IMG/VR virus record: IMGVR_UViG_3300009183_004565
Reading direction: 5' to 3' (one strand)
DNA from: a virus
Lineage: Duplodnaviria; Caudoviricetes
DNA length: 64,000 nucleotides
The notes under the pieces: model-generated
Database searches by the model: none
What the model was told of the DNA's origin: nothing
The model's input: only the letters and a program-made list of their open reading frames with translations
Shown: positions 52,982 to 64,000 of the stretch, one piece after another
How the letters are laid out: each line of letters opens with the position of its first letter
How positions within the stretch are numbered: position 1 is the stretch's first letter
Position numbers and translations under genes: made by a program

Positions 52982-53356
52982 ATGGTTAAAGCTCCTCCAT
53001 GTATAGTATTAGGGTGCGGAAGATCTTCTTCTTACATTAATAGAAACCAAGATGGCACAAAAAAATATCGAAATACCTGTAGCAAACATCATAAAACGAA
53101 TTTAAACATGTCTAAAAAAGATTATTGCGAAAATATTGATGGTCGCCTTGGATTTAAATGTACCACTACTATCTTAGGTCCGTATCAATTACAAGTAGAT
53201 CACGTTGACGGAGATCGTTACAATAACGATCCAAAAAATCTTCAGACTTTGTGTGCTTGTTGTCACGCTCATAAAACGCATAAAGAAAAAAATCATCTTA
53301 GACGTTACAATAAAAAAATACAAACTACATTTAATTCAATTTTCAACTTTCAATAA
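52982..53356 (+). mobile_element. Free-standing HNH endonuclease gene (putative homing endonuclease)
   Basis: QVDHVDGD..NN...NLQTLCACCH..KT; N-terminal C...C...C.KH zinc motif. Confidence 0.8.
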
Positions 53357-57255: not shown

Positions 57256-57829
57256 TCGCATATTGGAGTTTGAACAAGCACTGGCCGAATACACAGGTGC
57301 GCCATACGCAATCATGACTGATTGTTGTACTCATGCTATTGAGTTGTGTCTAAGATTTCAAAAGCCCACTCATTGTGCATTTACTGCTTTTACCTATCTG
57401 TCTGTGCCAATGACCATGCACAAACTAGGAATTGAGTACAGATTGATTCCCGAAGTATGGACTGGCGAATATCAATTCCACGGAACCACAATTTGGGATA
57501 GCGCACGTAGGCTAGAGCGAGGAATGTATCGAGCAGGACAGATGCAATGTCTCAGCTTCGGTTACACTAAGCCTTTACAAATAGGCCGTGGTGGTGCTAT
57601 ACTGTTAGACAATGAACAAGCATACAACACTATAACGGAACAACGATATGATGGGCGCAAATTATCAGTTACACCCTGGCAGGAACAAAAAACCTTCATG
57701 GTGGGCTATCATTATAGACCGACTCCGGAAGAAGCTGCGATTGGATTAATAAAATTGCGCGATGTTAATGAACTGCCTAAATATCACGAATATCCTGATC
57801 TAAGAGATATTAAAATTATTGGAGAATAA
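57245..57829 (+). CDS. Short DegT/DnrJ-family PLP aminotransferase-like protein
   Basis: FE..LAEY.GA.YA....CCTHA, P..Y.S.P, WDSA, CLSFG..KPL..G.GGAIL, A.IGL.KL; only about 194 aa. Confidence 0.7.
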   Translation: MSFDRILEFEQALAEYTGAPYAIMTDCCTHAIELCLRFQKPTHCAFTAFTYLSVPMTMHKLGIEYRLIPEVWTGEYQFHGTTIWDSARRLERGMYRAGQMQCLSFGYTKPLQIGRGGAILLDNEQAYNTITEQRYDGRKLSVTPWQEQKTFMVGYHYRPTPEEAAIGLIKLRDVNELPKYHEYPDLRDIKIIGE

Positions 57830-57830
57830 G

Positions 57831-58661
57831 TTGACCACAAAAGAATTTACACCAAATCCAGTATTAAACGAAACACCTGATAAAGAATTTGTTCCTATGG
57901 AACTGGAATCTATGTATGTGGCTTTACCACAAAAGGTATATGTGAAAGCTGGCGAAGCTGCTGCCGCTAAACAATCATATTTGTCGGATGCTATTCGTGC
58001 CAGGATGAAACGTGACGGTAAAAGATACTGGGCAGGAGATAACATCAGTGACTATCTAGCGGACAGTGACAAAGAACATCTAATCAGCGAAGCCGCAGAA
58101 GCATTTGAACTAGTACTAGACCGTTTGCTGATTGATCGCGAAAATGATCCTAACAGTCGAGGTACAGCACGACGCCTGGCTAAAATGTACTTCAACGAAA
58201 TAATGGCAGGTAGATATGAAACGGCACCAGACGCAACGGCTTTTCCAAATGATTCGGAGGAAAGATATGAAGGTATGCTTGTGGTTAGAAGTGAACTTCG
58301 CAGTATGTGTAGCCATCATCACCAGCCCGTTACTGGTGTTGCTTATATTGGTATTATCGCCGCTAATAAACTTATCGGTCTTAGTAAGTATACTCGTATT
58401 GCTCAGTGGTGCGCTCGTCGTGGCACACTACAAGAAGAGCTGTGTAATGATATCGCTAGAGAGATTATGAAGGCCACTGATGCTAAAGATGTAGCAGTAT
58501 ATGTACAAGCGATACATGGATGTTGCGAAAATCGCGGCATTATGGCACATAGTTCGTTAACTCAAACTACAGTATTAAAGGGAACATTCAAAGATGATCC
58601 TCATACTAAGAAGGAATTCTTCGACAACATTAAACTACAACAAGAATTTGCACCAAGGTAA
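57831..58661 (+). CDS. folE: GTP cyclohydrolase I with N-terminal extension
   Basis: TARRLAKMY, SMCSHHHQP, GLSKY.RI, QE.L...I, HGCC..RG, KEF; TTG 57831 follows GGAGA. Confidence 0.95.
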   Translation: MTTKEFTPNPVLNETPDKEFVPMELESMYVALPQKVYVKAGEAAAAKQSYLSDAIRARMKRDGKRYWAGDNISDYLADSDKEHLISEAAEAFELVLDRLLIDRENDPNSRGTARRLAKMYFNEIMAGRYETAPDATAFPNDSEERYEGMLVVRSELRSMCSHHHQPVTGVAYIGIIAANKLIGLSKYTRIAQWCARRGTLQEELCNDIAREIMKATDAKDVAVYVQAIHGCCENRGIMAHSSLTQTTVLKGTFKDDPHTKKEFFDNIKLQQEFAPR

Positions 58662-59049: not shown

Positions 59050-59244
59050 ATGTATATGAAACTCAACGACAAGCTAGTAAAATGCAACGATCATTTTACT
59101 GTCTATATGTACGACAATGGCTATATGGTTGAAATTGGTGGACGTGACGACAACGACGAATGGGTTACTGCCAAAGTTCTTTGCACAGATTTTAAAGAAC
59201 TAACCAATCTTATCGAAGAAGCTACCATAATGGAACGTGACTAA
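59050..59244 (+). CDS. Small hypothetical protein
   Basis: AAGGAG RBS; 64 aa. Confidence 0.65.
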   Translation: MYMKLNDKLVKCNDHFTVYMYDNGYMVEIGGRDDNDEWVTAKVLCTDFKELTNLIEEATIMERD

Positions 59245-59777
59245 TGAAAAAGTTAATTATCTCGGATGCTGAATTTAAAAAATTAGTTCACAAGCTCTGC
59301 AGAGATATTGCCAATAGCGATTGGCGACCTGACTATGTTGTAGGTTTAACTCGTGGTGGACTTACTGCTGCTGCCATGATCAGTCATTATTTTGATGTTC
59401 CTATGGAAACATTGAAGCCAAGATCGGAAAGCAATTGCTGGATGGCTGAAGATGCATTTGGATATATTCCAGACGGTCCGCTACGTGAAGGCATAGATAA
59501 ACGCAGTGACGCTACATTTAAAAAGAAAATTCTTGTTGTCGATGACATTAACGATACCGGTTCTACACTTGAATGGATACGTGAAGATTGGCAATCAAGT
59601 TGTTTGCCCAACGACGAATCTTGGAAATATGTATGGAACAAGAACGTGCGTTTTGCTGTATTAATCAATAACGAATCCAGTAACTATGAGCATGTGGATT
59701 ATTCAGGTCGTAACATTAATAAACTTGATGATCCGTGTTGGGTAGTGTTCCCCTGGGAAAATTGGTGGGAGGCATGA
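59244..59777 (+). CDS. Type I phosphoribosyltransferase (Gpt-like)
   Basis: YVVGLTRGGL, ILVVDDINDTGSTL (PRPP loop), WVVFPWE. Confidence 0.9.
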   Translation: MKKLIISDAEFKKLVHKLCRDIANSDWRPDYVVGLTRGGLTAAAMISHYFDVPMETLKPRSESNCWMAEDAFGYIPDGPLREGIDKRSDATFKKKILVVDDINDTGSTLEWIREDWQSSCLPNDESWKYVWNKNVRFAVLINNESSNYEHVDYSGRNINKLDDPCWVVFPWENWWEA

Positions 59778-60119: not shown

Positions 60120-60689
60120 ATGATCAATGTAGGAATATATCTAGAATCTAAGCCATTTAATGATAATTGGCCAAAAATTAAAATCTATCATAACAATAGT
60201 CTACTCGACGATGTAATTTGTCATCAGTCACTAGAGTTACATTATCAAATTAAACCTAGCGTTGATAACCTTCTCTCAATTGAGATGTACGGAAAAAGAT
60301 TCGGCGATGGCGGAATATATGATGTGGACAGTAACGGACAAGGACAAGAAATTCAAATTAAAGATATTACTTTTGATGATGTGTCAATTGATCACTTGTT
60401 GTCAAAAGTTGAATTTGAAACCCACTGGACTGAACACCAGCTTTCTTCACACAACGAAGAATTTAGATCTAAATATAATAGATATCAATCCAACGGTATG
60501 ATAGTCTTTAACGGAAGACTGAATTTTAATTTTTCAACTCCTATATATGATTTTTTAATTGATAAAAAGTATAAAGTTGATCATAACAAAGACATTGCTT
60601 ATTTTAGTAACAGCACGGAACTATTTAATTTTCATCTTGGATTAAGTAAATTAGAAGAAATTAAAAAAATTATTACAGAAAATGAATAA
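60120..60689 (+). CDS. Hypothetical protein, paralogous to 32723-33199
   Basis: TAAGTA-4nt-ATG start; shared motifs with the 32723 ORF. Confidence 0.6.
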   Translation: MINVGIYLESKPFNDNWPKIKIYHNNSLLDDVICHQSLELHYQIKPSVDNLLSIEMYGKRFGDGGIYDVDSNGQGQEIQIKDITFDDVSIDHLLSKVEFETHWTEHQLSSHNEEFRSKYNRYQSNGMIVFNGRLNFNFSTPIYDFLIDKKYKVDHNKDIAYFSNSTELFNFHLGLSKLEEIKKIITENE

Positions 60690-62187
60690 AAAAGTTTTAG
60701 TATTATCAGTTCCGCGACTCGAACCACATCGCCCCCCAATTAGTGCTACTCTTGTTGCTACTGTATGCAAAAATCACGGTTGTGATGTTAAGTTACGAGA
60801 TCTAAATATTGAATTTTATCATTATTGTAAATTAAATAATATAGAATATCAAAAATTTGATCCAATTTGGGATAGATATGTAGAACCATCAAATTTAGAA
60901 CTATCACATATACACACTCATATAGATAATTTTATTGCAACTGAAGATTTGCATTCTTACGATATCATTATGATCAGTGTATTTGGCTCAAGTAGCCATT
61001 ACTTCACTGAAATGTTATTAAAAAAAATTGCAGTAGATAGATCTTATAAAATTTTATTAGGTGGTTCGGGAGCATTTGTGTCTATTATGAATCGTGGGCA
61101 TAATTCTTTTGTTGTGGAGATGCAAAAACAAAATCTAATAGACGATTTTATAAAAGGCGAGTGCGAAGAATCCTTAAAATATTATTTAGACGGTAAAGAA
61201 TATCCAGGAATTAATAACTATGATCCTGTGCAGATTGATGATTTAGATTCATTACCGTTAATTGATTATAGTTTTGTTGACTTAGATGCTTATGAATATC
61301 TCACTGAAACTAAAGATGTTTATGTAGAAGGTAGTAGGGGATGTGTACGTAAATGTACTTATTGTGATGTTCAGAAATTTTGGCCAAAATATCGTTTCAG
61401 AAGTGGTCAGCATATTGCACACGAGCTTATTAACAATTACGAAAAATTTGGCATTAAAAAATTTTACTTTACTGATAGCTTAGTTAACGGAAGTTTAAAA
61501 TCATTCAATCAGATGTGCGATATTCTTGCTAATTACCCATATAGCAAAGAAATTAGCTGGGGAGGACAATTTATTTTCAGAAATGAAAGAACTGTGCCAC
61601 CGGAGCATTTTGAAATGATCGCTAAGGCCGGCGGTACTAATACTTTTTACGTAGGAATAGAAACTGGCAGTGATCAAGTTAGAAAACAAATGGGTAAAAA
61701 TTTTACCAACGAAGATATTAGTTATCAACTTGAAGAATTTAAAAAGAATAAATTGAAATGTACTTTTTTAATGTTTCCTGGCTATATTACAGAAACTGAA
61801 AAGGATCATCAAGACACATTAGATATGTTTTTAAGATGGCAAAAGTATGTAGCCAGTGGAACTATCAATGGTTTAGAATTAGGTAGTCCTTTGATAGTTC
61901 TCGAAGGAACCCCACTAGCTAGTATGATTGATGAGTATCAAATTGCATTTTTAGAGAGTGATAGAATTACTACTGGTAATTTCTGGGTATCAAAATTAAA
62001 TCCAAGTTTTGATTTTGAGCAGCGAGCTATTAGGCAAATCAGACTATACGAAGAAGCTGCAAAATATAAATGGCCTATTTGGAGATTTGAATCAAGAGCT
62101 GAAGAATTAAAACAAACTCTAATTAGATTTTATGAAATAAAAGAAAAAAATCCAACATATAAGATAACACCAATTAAAATTAATTAA
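60682..62187 (+). CDS. Cobalamin-binding (class B) radical SAM protein
   Basis: N-terminal B12-binding-like domain (ISVF, ILLGG, GECE), SRGCVRKCTYC, FTDSL.NG, GIETGS..V...MGK. Confidence 0.85.
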   Translation: MNKKVLVLSVPRLEPHRPPISATLVATVCKNHGCDVKLRDLNIEFYHYCKLNNIEYQKFDPIWDRYVEPSNLELSHIHTHIDNFIATEDLHSYDIIMISVFGSSSHYFTEMLLKKIAVDRSYKILLGGSGAFVSIMNRGHNSFVVEMQKQNLIDDFIKGECEESLKYYLDGKEYPGINNYDPVQIDDLDSLPLIDYSFVDLDAYEYLTETKDVYVEGSRGCVRKCTYCDVQKFWPKYRFRSGQHIAHELINNYEKFGIKKFYFTDSLVNGSLKSFNQMCDILANYPYSKEISWGGQFIFRNERTVPPEHFEMIAKAGGTNTFYVGIETGSDQVRKQMGKNFTNEDISYQLEEFKKNKLKCTFLMFPGYITETEKDHQDTLDMFLRWQKYVASGTINGLELGSPLIVLEGTPLASMIDEYQIAFLESDRITTGNFWVSKLNPSFDFEQRAIRQIRLYEEAAKYKWPIWRFESRAEELKQTLIRFYEIKEKNPTYKITPIKIN

Positions 62188-62198
62188 TAAATACTGTT

Positions 62199-62280
62199 CT
62201 ACACAGCGGCCTTTCTGGCATTCATCCCGCTTTACAAATTCTGCAAGCCTATGCTAAAATCTTAACATAGGAGAAAAACA
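62199..62280 (+). promoter_or_regulatory. Structured 5' leader of queD (riboswitch candidate)
   Basis: TAAATA 62188-93; AGCGG(62205-09)/CCGCT(62227-31); CCTATG(62248-53)/CATAGG(62266-71) covering AGGAG (62269-73). Confidence 0.5.
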
Positions 62281-62778
62281 ATGCAACCTGTTGTATATAA
62301 ATTTACTAGTACCAAAGAGTATCACGACGCCTTTCCTTGCGCTTACCGGCAATGGCGTGCCGATAGTCATTGTAATCTAATACACGGCTATTCATTTAGT
62401 ATGAAGTTCTACTTTGGTACTAACGACTTAGACGTTCGTAATTGGGCAGCTGACTACGGTGGACTTAAAGAACTTAAAAAGATTCTTGAAGATCAATTTG
62501 ACCACACATTAATTGTAGCCGAGGACGATCCCGAACTTGCAACATTTAAGTTGTTACAAGAACGGAACATGGCCAAGATTGTCATACTACCACGTTTAGG
62601 CTGTGAAGGCCTAGCTGACTCGCTGTACAAATATGTGAATGGTGTTTATATTCCTGATATGTGGGGACCTAGTGAAGCTGAACGCTTATGGTGTTATCGT
62701 GTAGAGGTTAGAGAGACACAAGCAAACATGGCGTACCGAGAAGGTCACCGTGAATGGAACGAGGATCTGTTTGCGTAA
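62281..62778 (+). CDS. queD: 6-carboxy-5,6,7,8-tetrahydropterin synthase
   Basis: FPCAYRQW...SHC..IHGY, DYG.LK...K.LE..FDH, GCE.LA, V.V.ET. Confidence 0.88.
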   Translation: MQPVVYKFTSTKEYHDAFPCAYRQWRADSHCNLIHGYSFSMKFYFGTNDLDVRNWAADYGGLKELKKILEDQFDHTLIVAEDDPELATFKLLQERNMAKIVILPRLGCEGLADSLYKYVNGVYIPDMWGPSEAERLWCYRVEVRETQANMAYREGHREWNEDLFA

Positions 62779-63592
62779 GTTCGTTATACGATGTGCCCGG
62801 AATCCGGATGGTCAAGAATTCTTAGACTTAGAATTCAATATTCGTCCGGGCTCTTACTCCGGCAAATGGATAGACTGCATACGTAGTGTGGAACACTTAC
62901 CTCCACATCAATACGGATTTCCCAAATGGCTAGAACACGATGCCGGTGTATACGAGCAACGTATTGCAGATGCATTAAACAACAACACAGATATACAAGA
63001 GTTTTTATTAGACTCTAACATTGATAGAACCGTGATCAATCAAGACTTGGTCAATGCTGTCCATAGATATATTGAGCACAATCATCAACATGCCGCCGAA
63101 CATCTTGTGTTACACAATGACATACATTACTTAGAAAGTATTTGGGAAGGTGCAACTGATGTTGTGTTCAAGAAGTTACAGTGGGTACCACCAGGGCTAA
63201 TAATTGACATGACCTTGGATGACTATAAAGAATTTACTACAGAACCATGCACTAACTTTATACAAGACGATTTTAGTCATGTAGGACGTAGTCCACATAA
63301 CAGTTACCTATATCAAGATGACTCCAGTCTGTACACTAGTTGTGTTATACAACATAAAGTTGGTTCAGGTGCTAAATGGTTTATTCCTGATGATAGTCAT
63401 ATCTTTAAGGACGAACGTGGATTCAGATCGTGGGTCAGTGAACATCAAGCGTTTTTTAAAAAGCAATGGGCGATAGAAACTAATAACGATCCTAGGCTTT
63501 GTTTTGGCCGTATTATTATTGCCGAAGGTGTGGAAGATTATAGTCGGATTGATAGGACATTTGACTTCGTAGTAAAAGCTTTTATTATCTAA
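62750..63592 (+). CDS. Hypothetical protein, paralogous to 41368-42237
   Basis: Shared motifs with the 41368 ORF; exact start uncertain. Confidence 0.55.
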   Translation: MNGTRICLRKFVIRCARNPDGQEFLDLEFNIRPGSYSGKWIDCIRSVEHLPPHQYGFPKWLEHDAGVYEQRIADALNNNTDIQEFLLDSNIDRTVINQDLVNAVHRYIEHNHQHAAEHLVLHNDIHYLESIWEGATDVVFKKLQWVPPGLIIDMTLDDYKEFTTEPCTNFIQDDFSHVGRSPHNSYLYQDDSSLYTSCVIQHKVGSGAKWFIPDDSHIFKDERGFRSWVSEHQAFFKKQWAIETNNDPRLCFGRIIIAEGVEDYSRIDRTFDFVVKAFII

Positions 63593-63613
63593 ATATTTGT
63601 AGTATAATACATT

Positions 63614-64000
63614 ATGTCAAAAATTAAAATTGCAGAGCTGTTTTACAGCATACAAGGAGAAGGTCGTTACATGGGTGTGCCTAGTGTGTTCTTGCGAACA
63701 TTTGGGTGTAACTTTAAATGTGCCGGCTTTGGTATGCCTCGAGGACAATTAAGTACAGAGGCAGATTTGGTTGATCCGGAAAAATATAAATTCTACGATA
63801 AACTACCTTTAGTTAGCACAGGTTGCGATAGTTACGCTAGTTGGGATCCAAGATTTAAAGATCTTAGTCCCATGCTCGAAAGCGATGCTATTGCGGATCG
63901 TATCATGGAGATATTGCCTTTTAACGAGTGGCGAGATGAACACTTGGTTATTACAGGTGGAGAACCTTTACTAGGGTGGCAACGTGCTTATCCGGACTTG
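63614..64000 (+). CDS. queE: 7-carboxy-7-deazaguanine synthase (radical SAM), partial, runs off the window
   Basis: Not in the ORF track because it has no stop. My translation: MSKIKIAELFYSIQGEGRYMGVPSVFLRTFGCNFKC...GCDSYASW...HLVITGGEPLL. Confidence 0.92.
   Translation, partial: MSKIKIAELFYSIQGEGRYMGVPSVFLRTFGCNFKCAGFGMPRGQLSTEADLVDPEKYKFYDKLPLVSTGCDSYASWDPRFKDLSPMLESDAIADRIMEILPFNEWRDEHLVITGGEPLLGWQRAYPDL

What the first reader, a model, noticed from the sequence alone, without database searches (positions are those of the whole stretch)
62188..62280. Riboswitch-like structured leader that hides the queD ribosome-binding site
Seen: most TAAATA-type starts in this window give leaderless or short-leader mRNAs, but queD has an ~80-nt leader. 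It contains a 5' helix AGCGG/CCGCT (with an internal GCC/GGC option) and a 3' hairpin CCTATG/CATAGG that pairs the AGG of the AGGAG SD. An alternative GCTT(62229-32)/AAGC(62245-48) helix would overlap both. It does not match the preQ1-I/II/III layouts I know; the UGCAAG...GCUAAAA words only loosely recall SAM-II. Inference: a phage-encoded aptamer sensing a pathway metabolite (preQ0/CDG/pterin/GTP/SAM), or a protein-binding operator, that controls deazaguanine synthesis.
Basis: partly seen in the sequence, partly recalled or inferred. Interest (0 to 1): 0.8.

Follow-up and report, generated by a model that had tools for sequence, protein, structure and literature searches.

The report
Phage queD-leader pseudoknot riboswitch candidate
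The 93-base gap before this phage's queD gene encodes a small RNA pseudoknot shaped like a class I preQ1 riboswitch; hundreds of uncultured freshwater and marine phages keep it with compensating base changes, no catalogued RNA family matches it, and its wiring suggests a bound ligand turns translation on.

Summary
[quoted passage not shown] Alone the leader does not fold better than shuffles (z -0.55). Comparison settles it.

- **P1:** paired in 57 of 57 distinct relatives, with compensatory changes at 3 of its 5 pairs.
- **Missed pseudoknot:** loop GGCAUUCA (62217-62224) pairs with UGCAAGCC (62242-62249). This P2 covaries, including a CA/UG to CG/CG swap (135 versus 4 unique sequences, none discordant).
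- **Layout:** an H-type pseudoknot like preQ1-I, with an invariant C before the P1 3' strand (mostly UC) and a 10-11 nt A-rich L3. Rfam's PreQ1 model does not detect it, even at E <= 10.
- **Distribution:** the first ORF after the motif is QueD-like in 147 of 157 unique leaders. It is also present in 72 of 80 loci of a marine QueD clade (41% protein identity). It is nearly absent from 185,579 prokaryote genomes and was not found in GenBank phages.
- **Wiring:** the P2 3' strand is shared with the helix that masks the SD or the start codon. A ligand-stabilised pseudoknot should therefore free the ribosome site, making this an ON switch. The ON logic and the ligand are inferred, not shown.

This scan found the same motif before on other DNA (at least 40 genomes), with the same reading.

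The parts
62188..62193 (+). TAAATA box, a T4-type late-promoter-like -10 element, abutting the stop codon of the upstream radical-SAM ORF
   Evidence: An exact TAAATA lies within 45 nt upstream of P1 in 104 of 155 unique relatives, mostly 5-11 nt from P1, with A at -1 in 70%. Promoter function and the transcription start are inferred, not shown.
62205..62209 (+). P1 5' strand, AGCGG
   Evidence: Pairs with 62227-62231. It is 100% paired in 57 distinct sequences, with changes AU>UA, GC>CG and CG>AU/UA.
62210..62216 (+). L1, CCUUUCU. Length varies from 5 to 11 nt across the family. C62211 is invariant and U62212 nearly so.
   Evidence: Alignment A1.
62217..62224 (+). P2 5' strand, GGCAUUCA. It consists of P2a (GGC, then an A.A mismatch or bulge, then U), a conserved U.C mismatch, and P2b (CA).
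   Evidence: Covariation with 62242-62249. duplexfold recovers the same two-part helix across the family.
62225..62226 (+). L2, UC. C62226 is invariant and sits at the position of the preQ1-I specificity cytosine.
   Evidence: It is an invariant column in A1. L2 is UC in 97 of 139 unique sequences. The role of this C in preQ1-I comes from PMC3905878 and PMC8752633.
62227..62231 (+). P1 3' strand, CCGCU
62232..62241 (+). L3, UUACAAAUUC: an A-rich tail of constant length (10-11 nt). A62234, A62236, A62238, U62240 and C62241 are invariant.
62242..62249 (+). P2 3' strand, UGCAAGCC. Its last two Cs (62248-62249) also belong to the anti-SD hairpin. Its UGCA can also pair with UGCA at 62282-62285, which overlaps the start codon.
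62248..62253 (+). Anti-SD arm, CCUAUG
   Evidence: The hairpin with 62266-62271 folds at -7.1 kcal/mol. Without its two closing C-G pairs it does not fold (0.0 kcal/mol).
62266..62273 (+). CAUAGG arm plus SD AGGAG (62269-62273)
   Evidence: P(unpaired) of the SD's AGG is 0.00-0.01 in the unconstrained ensemble.
62281..62778 (+). queD (PTPS / CPH4 synthase-like, 165 aa), the regulated gene
   Evidence: Pfam PF01242 at 3.6e-14 and phrog_2389 at 2.3e-35.
62750..64000 (+). Downstream genes that probably share the transcript: a 280-aa ORF with no family match, then a QueE-like radical-SAM gene (from 63614, running off the window)
   Evidence: That they form one operon is inferred from the tight spacing.

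Best explanation
The queD leader is a phage-specific riboswitch candidate built as an H-type pseudoknot of the preQ1-I kind.

**Anatomy (window coordinates).**
- P1: 62205-62209 with 62227-62231.
- P2: 62217-62224 with 62242-62249, containing a conserved U.C mismatch.
- L2: UC, whose C62226 is invariant.
- L3: a 10-nt A-rich tail.

**Proposed mechanism.**
- Without ligand, the P2 3' strand is used by the expression platform. In this window its two terminal Cs close the CCUAUG/CAUAGG hairpin that covers the SD. In other family members the same strand pairs with the start-codon region. Translation of queD, and probably of the downstream queE-like gene, is then low.
- A purine-like ligand is most likely a 7-deazaguanine such as preQ1, preQ0 or CDG. 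It would be read by C62226 at the P1/P2 junction and stabilise P2. This pulls the shared bases out of the masking helix and exposes the ribosome site, giving an ON switch.

**Shown:** conservation, P1 and P2 covariation, the strand shared between P2 and the masking helices, the association with queD, and restriction to phages.

**Inferred:** that a small molecule binds, which one it is, the ON direction, and the transcription start about 5 nt upstream of P1 from the TAAATA box.
For: 1. **Conservation.** The search for related loci gave 592 IMG/VR stretches encoding a QueD relative (the 80 kept are 87-93% identical), and their upstream regions are nearly all alignable.
2. **P1.** It is 100% paired in 57 distinct sequences, with 3 of 5 pairs showing changes on both sides. 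P1 and P2 together are 92.9% paired against 33-45% when the partners are slid, and 0 of 500 shuffles reach the covariation score.
3. **P2b.** CA/UG occurs in 135 unique sequences and CG/CG in 4, with no discordant case. Other P2 variants are GGCA/UGCC, GGCG/CGCC, GGUG/CACC, GGACA/UGUCU and AUGACGC/GUGUCAU.
4. **Independent events.** On a FastTree tree of the downstream QueD domain (233 loci), the P1 state changes at least 23 times and the P2b state at least 5 times. The tree is rough.
5. **preQ1-I-like features.** An invariant C lies just 5' of the P1 3' strand, mostly as UC, as in type I (PMC11625349; PMC8752633). L3 is A-rich and constant at 10-11 nt. P1 is closed by GG/CC.
6. **Gene association.** The first ORF after the motif is QueD-like in 147 of 157 unique leaders. 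The motif is kept in 72 of 80 loci of a marine clade whose QueD is only 41% identical.
7. **Shared strand.** In 99% of 147 leaders at least 2 nt of the P2 3' strand are also paired in the platform's MFE structure, and in 98.6% at least 3 SD nt or at least 2 start-codon nt are paired there. The anti-start helix covaries: CAUC/GAUG, CAUUG/CAAUG and GCCAUUGUU/AACAAUGGC.
8. **Copy number.** There is one copy in the window and in the 144-kb record.
Against: - No ligand was tested, and no RNA run holding this sequence could be listed.
- The single sequence does not fold better than shuffles.
- Rfam PreQ1 (RF00522) gives no hit at the leader even at E <= 10.
- L1 is N-C-U, not the UU or U6 of preQ1-I. 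Two extra pyrimidines sit where the alpha-site adenine (A30 in the C. antarcticum riboswitch) precedes P2. The pocket therefore differs.
- Thermodynamic modelling supports the ON direction only modestly. Mean P(unpaired) of SD plus start rises from 0.41 to 0.54 when the pseudoknot is made unavailable. It rises by at least 0.1 in 95 of 197 leaders and falls by at least 0.1 in 13. In this window it goes only from 0.34-0.36 to 0.41.
- Turning on a biosynthetic gene with a product of the same pathway is not the usual logic.
- Related sequences are not independent, so the shuffle statistics overstate significance.
Confidence: 0.6

Rival explanations
1. The pseudoknot and ON wiring are the same, but the ligand is not a 7-deazaguanine. 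Candidates are free guanine (released when a DpdA-type enzyme swaps bases in DNA), the FolE product or another pterin intermediate (feed-forward), or some other metabolite.
For: - The pocket differs from preQ1-I in L1 and at the 3' end of L3.
- ON logic fits a substrate or demand signal better than an end product.
- A purine-type phosphoribosyltransferase (59244-59777) and folE (57819-58661) lie in the same cluster.
- QueC was not found in two 100%-complete motif-bearing phage genomes, so their own pathway would stop at CDG.
Against: - The invariant C next to P1, the UC motif and the A-rich tail are the hallmarks of the preQ1 pocket.
- No gene other than queD-like genes is regularly controlled.
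- Nothing here discriminates between ligands that share a guanine-like face.
Confidence: 0.2
2. It is a ligand-independent or protein-dependent translational operator. The pseudoknot and hairpin would compete as a fixed attenuator, a thermometer or Mg2+ sensor, or the binding site of a phage protein such as QueD itself or a late translational regulator.
For: - No ligand evidence exists.
- P2 can reach 7-8 pairs and could form without a ligand.
- T4-type phages use RNA-binding translational repressors and RBS-masking hairpins (own knowledge).
Against: - The invariant unpaired bases cluster at the P1/P2 junction (C62226, the L3 adenines, U62240, C62241) while the helices vary freely. That is the pattern of a small-molecule pocket.
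- The aptamer is kept across two QueD clades and several different platforms.
- The architecture parallels a known metabolite sensor of the same pathway.
Confidence: 0.13
3. It is an ordinary preQ1-I OFF switch: ligand binding represses queD, as in bacteria.
For: All characterised preQ1 riboswitches repress (review PMC11625349). Feedback repression of a biosynthetic gene is the common logic.
Against: - The SD lies outside P2, 20 nt downstream of it in this window.
- The P2 3' strand is the anti-SD or anti-start strand, so forming P2 removes the mask rather than making one.
- The Rfam model does not recognise the leader.
Confidence: 0.06

Closest known systems
preQ1-I riboswitch (Rfam RF00522; types I-III, e.g. 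B. subtilis queC, T. tengcongensis, Carnobacterium antarcticum, E. coli)
   Same: - H-type pseudoknot with a 5-bp P1 closed by G-C pairs.
- A cytosine immediately 5' of the P1 3' strand, preceded by U as in type I.
- An A-rich L3 directly after P1.
- P2 formed between the loop and the 3' tail.
- A position in front of 7-deazaguanine (queuosine-precursor) synthesis genes.
   Different: - Not detected by the Rfam model even at E <= 10.
- P2 is 7-8 positions long with a conserved U.C mismatch, against 3-4 pairs.
- L1 is 5-11 nt and reads N-C-U, not UU.
- Extra invariant pyrimidines (Y-U-C) lie between the A-run and P2.
- The SD is not in P2, and the P2 3' strand doubles as the anti-SD or anti-start strand, which implies ON rather than OFF.
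- It is found almost only in uncultured phages.
preQ1-II and preQ1-III riboswitches
   Same: Same pathway. They are pseudoknotted, and class III also has an expression platform away from the pocket.
   Different: Those are HLout pseudoknots of about 80-100 nt with other consensus sequences, linked to queT. Rfam gives no hit here.
ON-type purine riboswitches (e.g. the add adenine riboswitch)
   Same: Translational ON logic, in which ligand binding captures a strand that would otherwise mask the SD.
   Different: They have a three-way junction fold and show no sequence or structural similarity to this leader.
Other riboswitch-like RNAs seen in phage and marine metagenomes (glutamine riboswitch/glnA RNA, SAM-V; own knowledge)
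   Same: Small pseudoknotted RNAs carried by phages in front of auxiliary metabolic genes.
   Different: Different folds and ligands. No Rfam family matched this leader.

Membership tests
preQ1-I riboswitch (RF00522) | H-type pseudoknot: a 5-bp P1 plus a P2 between the hairpin loop and the 3' tail | tested here: met
   P1 is 100% paired with 3 covarying pairs. P2 is 87% paired with 4 pairs changed on both sides. P2b swaps CA/UG to CG/CG without exception.
preQ1-I riboswitch (RF00522) | Specificity cytosine immediately 5' of the P1 3' strand (UC in type I, AC in types II and III) | tested here: met
   C62226 is invariant in 57 sequences. L2 is UC in 97 of 139 unique sequences and AC in 9. The feature is defined in PMC11625349 and PMC8752633.
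preQ1-I riboswitch (RF00522) | A-rich L3 tail directly after P1 | tested here: met
   L3 is constant at 10-11 nt, with invariant adenines at 62234, 62236 and 62238.
preQ1-I riboswitch (RF00522) | Conserved U (U6, or UU) at the start of L1, and the alpha-site adenine directly before the P2 3' strand | tested here: not met
   L1 begins N-C-U. The bases before the P2 3' strand are Y-U-C, not A or AC (compared).
preQ1-I riboswitch (RF00522) | Scores at or above the family's gathering threshold (39 bits) | tested here: not met
   There is no PreQ1 hit at the leader at E <= 10 in the window, in L028 or in the whole 144-kb record. The control search did find the family in B. subtilis.
preQ1-I riboswitch (RF00522) | SD within or abutting the P2 3' strand, so that ligand binding represses | tested here: not met
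   The SD (62269-62273) lies 20 nt downstream of P2, and the P2 3' strand is the anti-SD or anti-start strand.
preQ1-I riboswitch (RF00522) | Binds preQ1 or preQ0 | not testable with these tools
   This needs in-line probing, ITC or a reporter assay.
SAM-II / SAM-V | Match to the family covariance model | tested here: not met
   Neither family appears among the matches up to E = 10.
freshwater-2 RNA (RF02980) | Match to the family model above gathering (49.9 bits) | tested here: not met
   The score is 18.6 bits (E 1.2), and the aligned part is essentially the AGGAGAAAA..AUG ribosome site.

The most novel reading that the evidence does not exclude
This is a riboswitch class found only in phages. 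It has kept the preQ1-I scaffold but re-tuned the pocket and reversed the output. It would sense a purine-like signal of demand or supply and switch ON synthesis of a 7-deazaguanine DNA hypermodification late in infection. Candidate signals are free guanine released by base exchange in DNA, CDG in these QueC-less phages, or the FolE product. It would be the first metabolite-sensing RNA known to govern virus DNA modification.
Probability: 0.25. Interest if true: 0.9.

Novelty: new variant of a known kind. Interest (0 to 1): 0.8.

Why it matters
- **Possible first of its kind.** If it binds a ligand, this would be a new riboswitch class or subclass. It has over a thousand candidate loci in IMG/VR, it is apparently confined to uncultured phages, and it controls the first committed step of 7-deazaguanine synthesis.
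- **Anti-restriction link.** Known phage 7-deazaguanine DNA modifications protect against host restriction (own knowledge), so this RNA would govern that pathway.
- **ON version of a small scaffold.** An ON-acting relative of one of the smallest known aptamer scaffolds would be useful for RNA engineering.
- **How pockets evolve.** It would show how a binding pocket is re-tuned to a new signal or output.
- **Readout of phage sensing.** It would reveal what a phage senses while it rewrites its DNA chemistry.
- **Testable now.** The RNA is about 85 nt, so the idea can be tested directly.

Tried and rejected
- **Rfam.** The gathering search of the whole window gave nothing. E-value searches of the leader and of an AGAGG-type relative gave only chance-level hits: MIR390, freshwater-2 on the SD part, and emrB-Lactobacillus. 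RF00522 on the whole record gave nothing at the leader.
Not conserved.
- **Inner GCC/GGC hairpin.** Ambiguous, and kept only as a possible ligand-free conformer.
- **Alternative P2 register with AUGCU in the hairpin arm.** Rejected, because the base after GGC covaries with the base before GCC (A/U, G/C, U/A; also GGUG/CACC and GGACA/UGUCU).
- **Genuine preQ1-I sequences for a cross-test.** A search of 121 genomes of one phylum gave none, so R1 was not tested against real preQ1-I RNAs.
- **RNA evidence for a transcription start.** No RNA holder was listed for window:61700-62900.
- **Cultured phages.** blastn of the locus and of the leader against the phage collection (INPHARED GenBank records) gave no true match. 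The closest cultured QueD proteins are at most 54% identical. R1 finds no motif near queD in ACP17, Xanthomonas X1, PhiXhv-15, Phosso or Motura.
- **Weak R1 hits in the Haliscomenobacter MAG** (21 bits): they lie in coding sequence and are chance matches.
- **Literature.** Seven full-text searches found no description of a phage queD-leader riboswitch or of an ON-type preQ1-like switch. The library does not hold most subscription-journal papers.

Full report
**1. What is there**

The finding lies in the 93-nt gap between a B12-binding-type radical-SAM ORF (60682-62187) and queD (62281-62778; PF01242, phrog_2389). A QueE-like gene starts at 63614 and folE lies at 57819-58661. The window is part of a 144-kb IMG/VR virus record estimated to be 41% complete. 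It carries a family B DNA polymerase (phrog_262).

- AGCGG 62205-62209 with CCGCT 62227-62231.
- CCTATG 62248-62253 with CATAGG 62266-62271. This hairpin covers the AGG of SD AGGAG (62269-62273).
- The ATG is at 62281.

The sequence alone folds no better than shuffles (z -0.55).

**2. Comparative evidence**

Their upstream regions align almost base for base through an approximately 45-nt core.

On 57 distinct sequences, P1 is paired in every one. Three of its five pairs show changes on both sides: AU>UA, GC>CG and CG>AU/UA.

The loop is also complementary to the sequence that follows the conserved tail, which gives a pseudoknot helix, P2. In the window this is GGCAUUCA (62217-62224) with UGCAAGCC (62242-62249).
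- The distal part (P2a) varies with compensation. Examples are GGCA/UGCC, GGCG/CGCC, GGUG/CACC, GGACA/UGUCU and AUGACGC/GUGUCAU.
- The proximal part (P2b) is CA/UG in 135 unique sequences and CG/CG in 4, with none discordant.
- A U.C mismatch between P2a and P2b is conserved.
- P1 and P2 together are 92.9% paired, against 33-45% when the 3' partners are slid by 1-3 columns. None of 500 shuffles reaches the observed covariation.

On a rough FastTree tree of the downstream QueD domain (233 loci), the P1 state changes at least 23 times and the P2b state at least 5 times. These counts may be inflated by tree error and recombination. They still argue against a single inherited change.

**3. Architecture**

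Reading 5' to 3':

| Element | Content |
|---|---|
| P1 | 5 bp, top two pairs invariant G-C |
| L1 | 5-11 nt, N-C-U... |
| P2 5' strand | loop side of the pseudoknot |
| L2 | UC in 97 of 139 unique sequences; the C is invariant |
| P1 3' strand | pairs back to P1 5' |
| L3 | constant 10-11 nt, A-rich, UUACAAAUUC |
| P2 3' strand | tail side of the pseudoknot |

. The invariant unpaired bases cluster at the P1/P2 junction.

This is the layout of class I preQ1 riboswitches. In those, the cytosine before the P1 3' strand pairs with the ligand, the A-rich tail docks on P1, and type I members have UC at this place (PMC3905878; PMC11625349; PMC8752633).

The differences are these:
- P2 is much longer.
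- L1 is longer and lacks the UU or U6.
- Y-U-C sits where the alpha-site adenine precedes P2.
- Rfam's PreQ1 model gives no hit at E <= 10 in the window, in a relative, or in the whole record.

I therefore do not file it as a member of RF00522. I read it as a variant of that kind.

**4. Expression platform**

Two main designs occur.
- In the window's class, the last two Cs of the P2 3' strand are the closing pairs of the anti-SD hairpin. That hairpin folds at -7.1 kcal/mol, and without those two pairs it does not fold at all.
- In the second class, the P2 3' strand continues into a 7-9-bp helix with the start-codon region. This helix covaries: CAUC/GAUG, CAUUG/CAAUG and GCCAUUGUU/AACAAUGGC. 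At -9 to -13.7 kcal/mol it is usually more stable than P2 alone (-4 to -10 kcal/mol).

Across 147 leaders, 99% share at least 2 nt between the P2 3' strand and the platform's MFE helix. In 98.6% the SD or the start codon is paired. Forming P2 must therefore undo the mask.

If a ligand stabilises the pseudoknot, as in preQ1-I, the switch is ON. This step is inference.

Ensemble modelling supports it only modestly. Accessibility of SD plus start rises from 0.41 to 0.54 on average when the pseudoknot is made unavailable. In the window it rises only from 0.34-0.36 to 0.41. There, the SD can also pair with the start of the coding sequence, and UGCA 62242-62245 can pair with UGCA 62282-62285.

**5. 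Distribution**

- The first ORF after the motif is QueD-like in 147 of 157 unique leaders. The real exceptions are a cupin-like ORF, a 243-aa unknown ORF, and a homing-endonuclease-like insert.
- A pattern scan of one genome from each of 185,579 prokaryote species gave 29 stretches. Only 4 are true instances. All 4 precede QueD-like ORFs in MAG contigs that look like binned phage DNA.
- The motif has one copy in the window and one in the whole record.
- A marine QueD clade, 41% identical in protein and with 586 or more IMG/VR stretches, carries the motif in 72 of 80 loci. There P1 is AGAGG/CCUCU and P2 is GACUUUCA/UGCAAGUC, and there is no TAAATA box.
- No GenBank phage record matched, and the closest cultured phages lack the motif near queD.
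- No paper describing it was found.

**6. Promoter**

A TAAATA box (TAAGTA in some) lies mostly 5-11 nt upstream of P1, with A at -1 in 70%. It resembles T4-type late promoters (own knowledge). If it is used, the transcript would start a few bases before P1, so the aptamer would be the 5' end of a late mRNA. This is not shown, because no RNA run could be listed.

**7. Ligand**

This is unknown.
- The scaffold and the gene association point to a 7-deazaguanine.
- QueC was not found in the record, nor in two 100%-complete motif-bearing genomes of 383 and 354 kb. The phages' own pathway may therefore end at CDG.
- The altered pocket and the ON logic leave room for guanine, CDG or a pterin intermediate.

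**8. Verdict**

This is a real, strongly conserved, phage-specific cis-regulatory pseudoknot (confidence above 0.95). It is probably a riboswitch (about 0.7) and probably ON (about 0.65 given that it binds a ligand). The ligand is unresolved.

The same motif was found earlier by this scan in at least 40 other genomes, with the same conclusion. My analysis was made before I read those notes and agrees with them. It adds the P2b covariation, the redefinition of L2 and L3, and the marine clade.

Noticed in passing
L113:5-56 and L113:68-997: A second, degenerate copy of the leader (R1 31 bits; P1 ACCAG/CUGGU; the tail reads UUCGCC instead of CUCUGC). It precedes an inserted 309-aa ORF with a SAM-methyltransferase-like GxGxG motif. 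It lies about 1 kb upstream of the intact leader and queD, and looks like a cassette insertion that duplicated the leader.
   Followed up: partly
L204 and L212 (IMG/VR loci): A 282-aa ORF that looks like a homing endonuclease from its N-terminal sequence (not tested) is inserted after the motif. It has its own SD and is the first ORF downstream.
   Followed up: no
G001 (Haliscomenobacter sp. MAG): C1:164381-164434 and C58:25260-25311: Two different contigs of one Bacteroidota MAG each carry a full motif with a TAAATA box and a QueD-like ORF. This is either binned phage DNA or a hint at the host group.
   Followed up: partly
G124 and G126 (383-kb and 354-kb virus records holding L077 and L181): These motif-bearing jumbo-phage genomes are rated 100% complete yet have no QueC hit. 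The only weak hits, in other records, cover just the N-terminal part of the profile. Their own pathway would stop at CDG unless host QueC is used.
   Followed up: partly
window 62750-63592: A 280-aa ORF between queD and the QueE-like gene has no Pfam or PHROG match. Its GTG start overlaps the end of queD by 29 nt.
   Followed up: no
PF01702 (TGT) finds nothing in the whole record.
   Followed up: partly
window 52982-53356: An HNH endonuclease ORF (124 aa) sits inside the modification gene cluster.
   Followed up: no
L305:1177-1431 (marine clade): The ORF directly upstream of the marine leader weakly resembles the phage late-transcription coactivator (PF16805, E 0.0017, below cut-off). This hints that the marine carriers are T4-like too. 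Here the upstream stop codon abuts P1 and there is no TAAATA box.
   Followed up: no
window 62242-62245 and 62282-62285: The palindromic UGCA at the start of the P2 3' strand can pair with the UGCA that overlaps the start codon. In this window the P2 3' strand may therefore mask both the SD and the AUG. It does not covary in the CCGC variants.
   Followed up: partly
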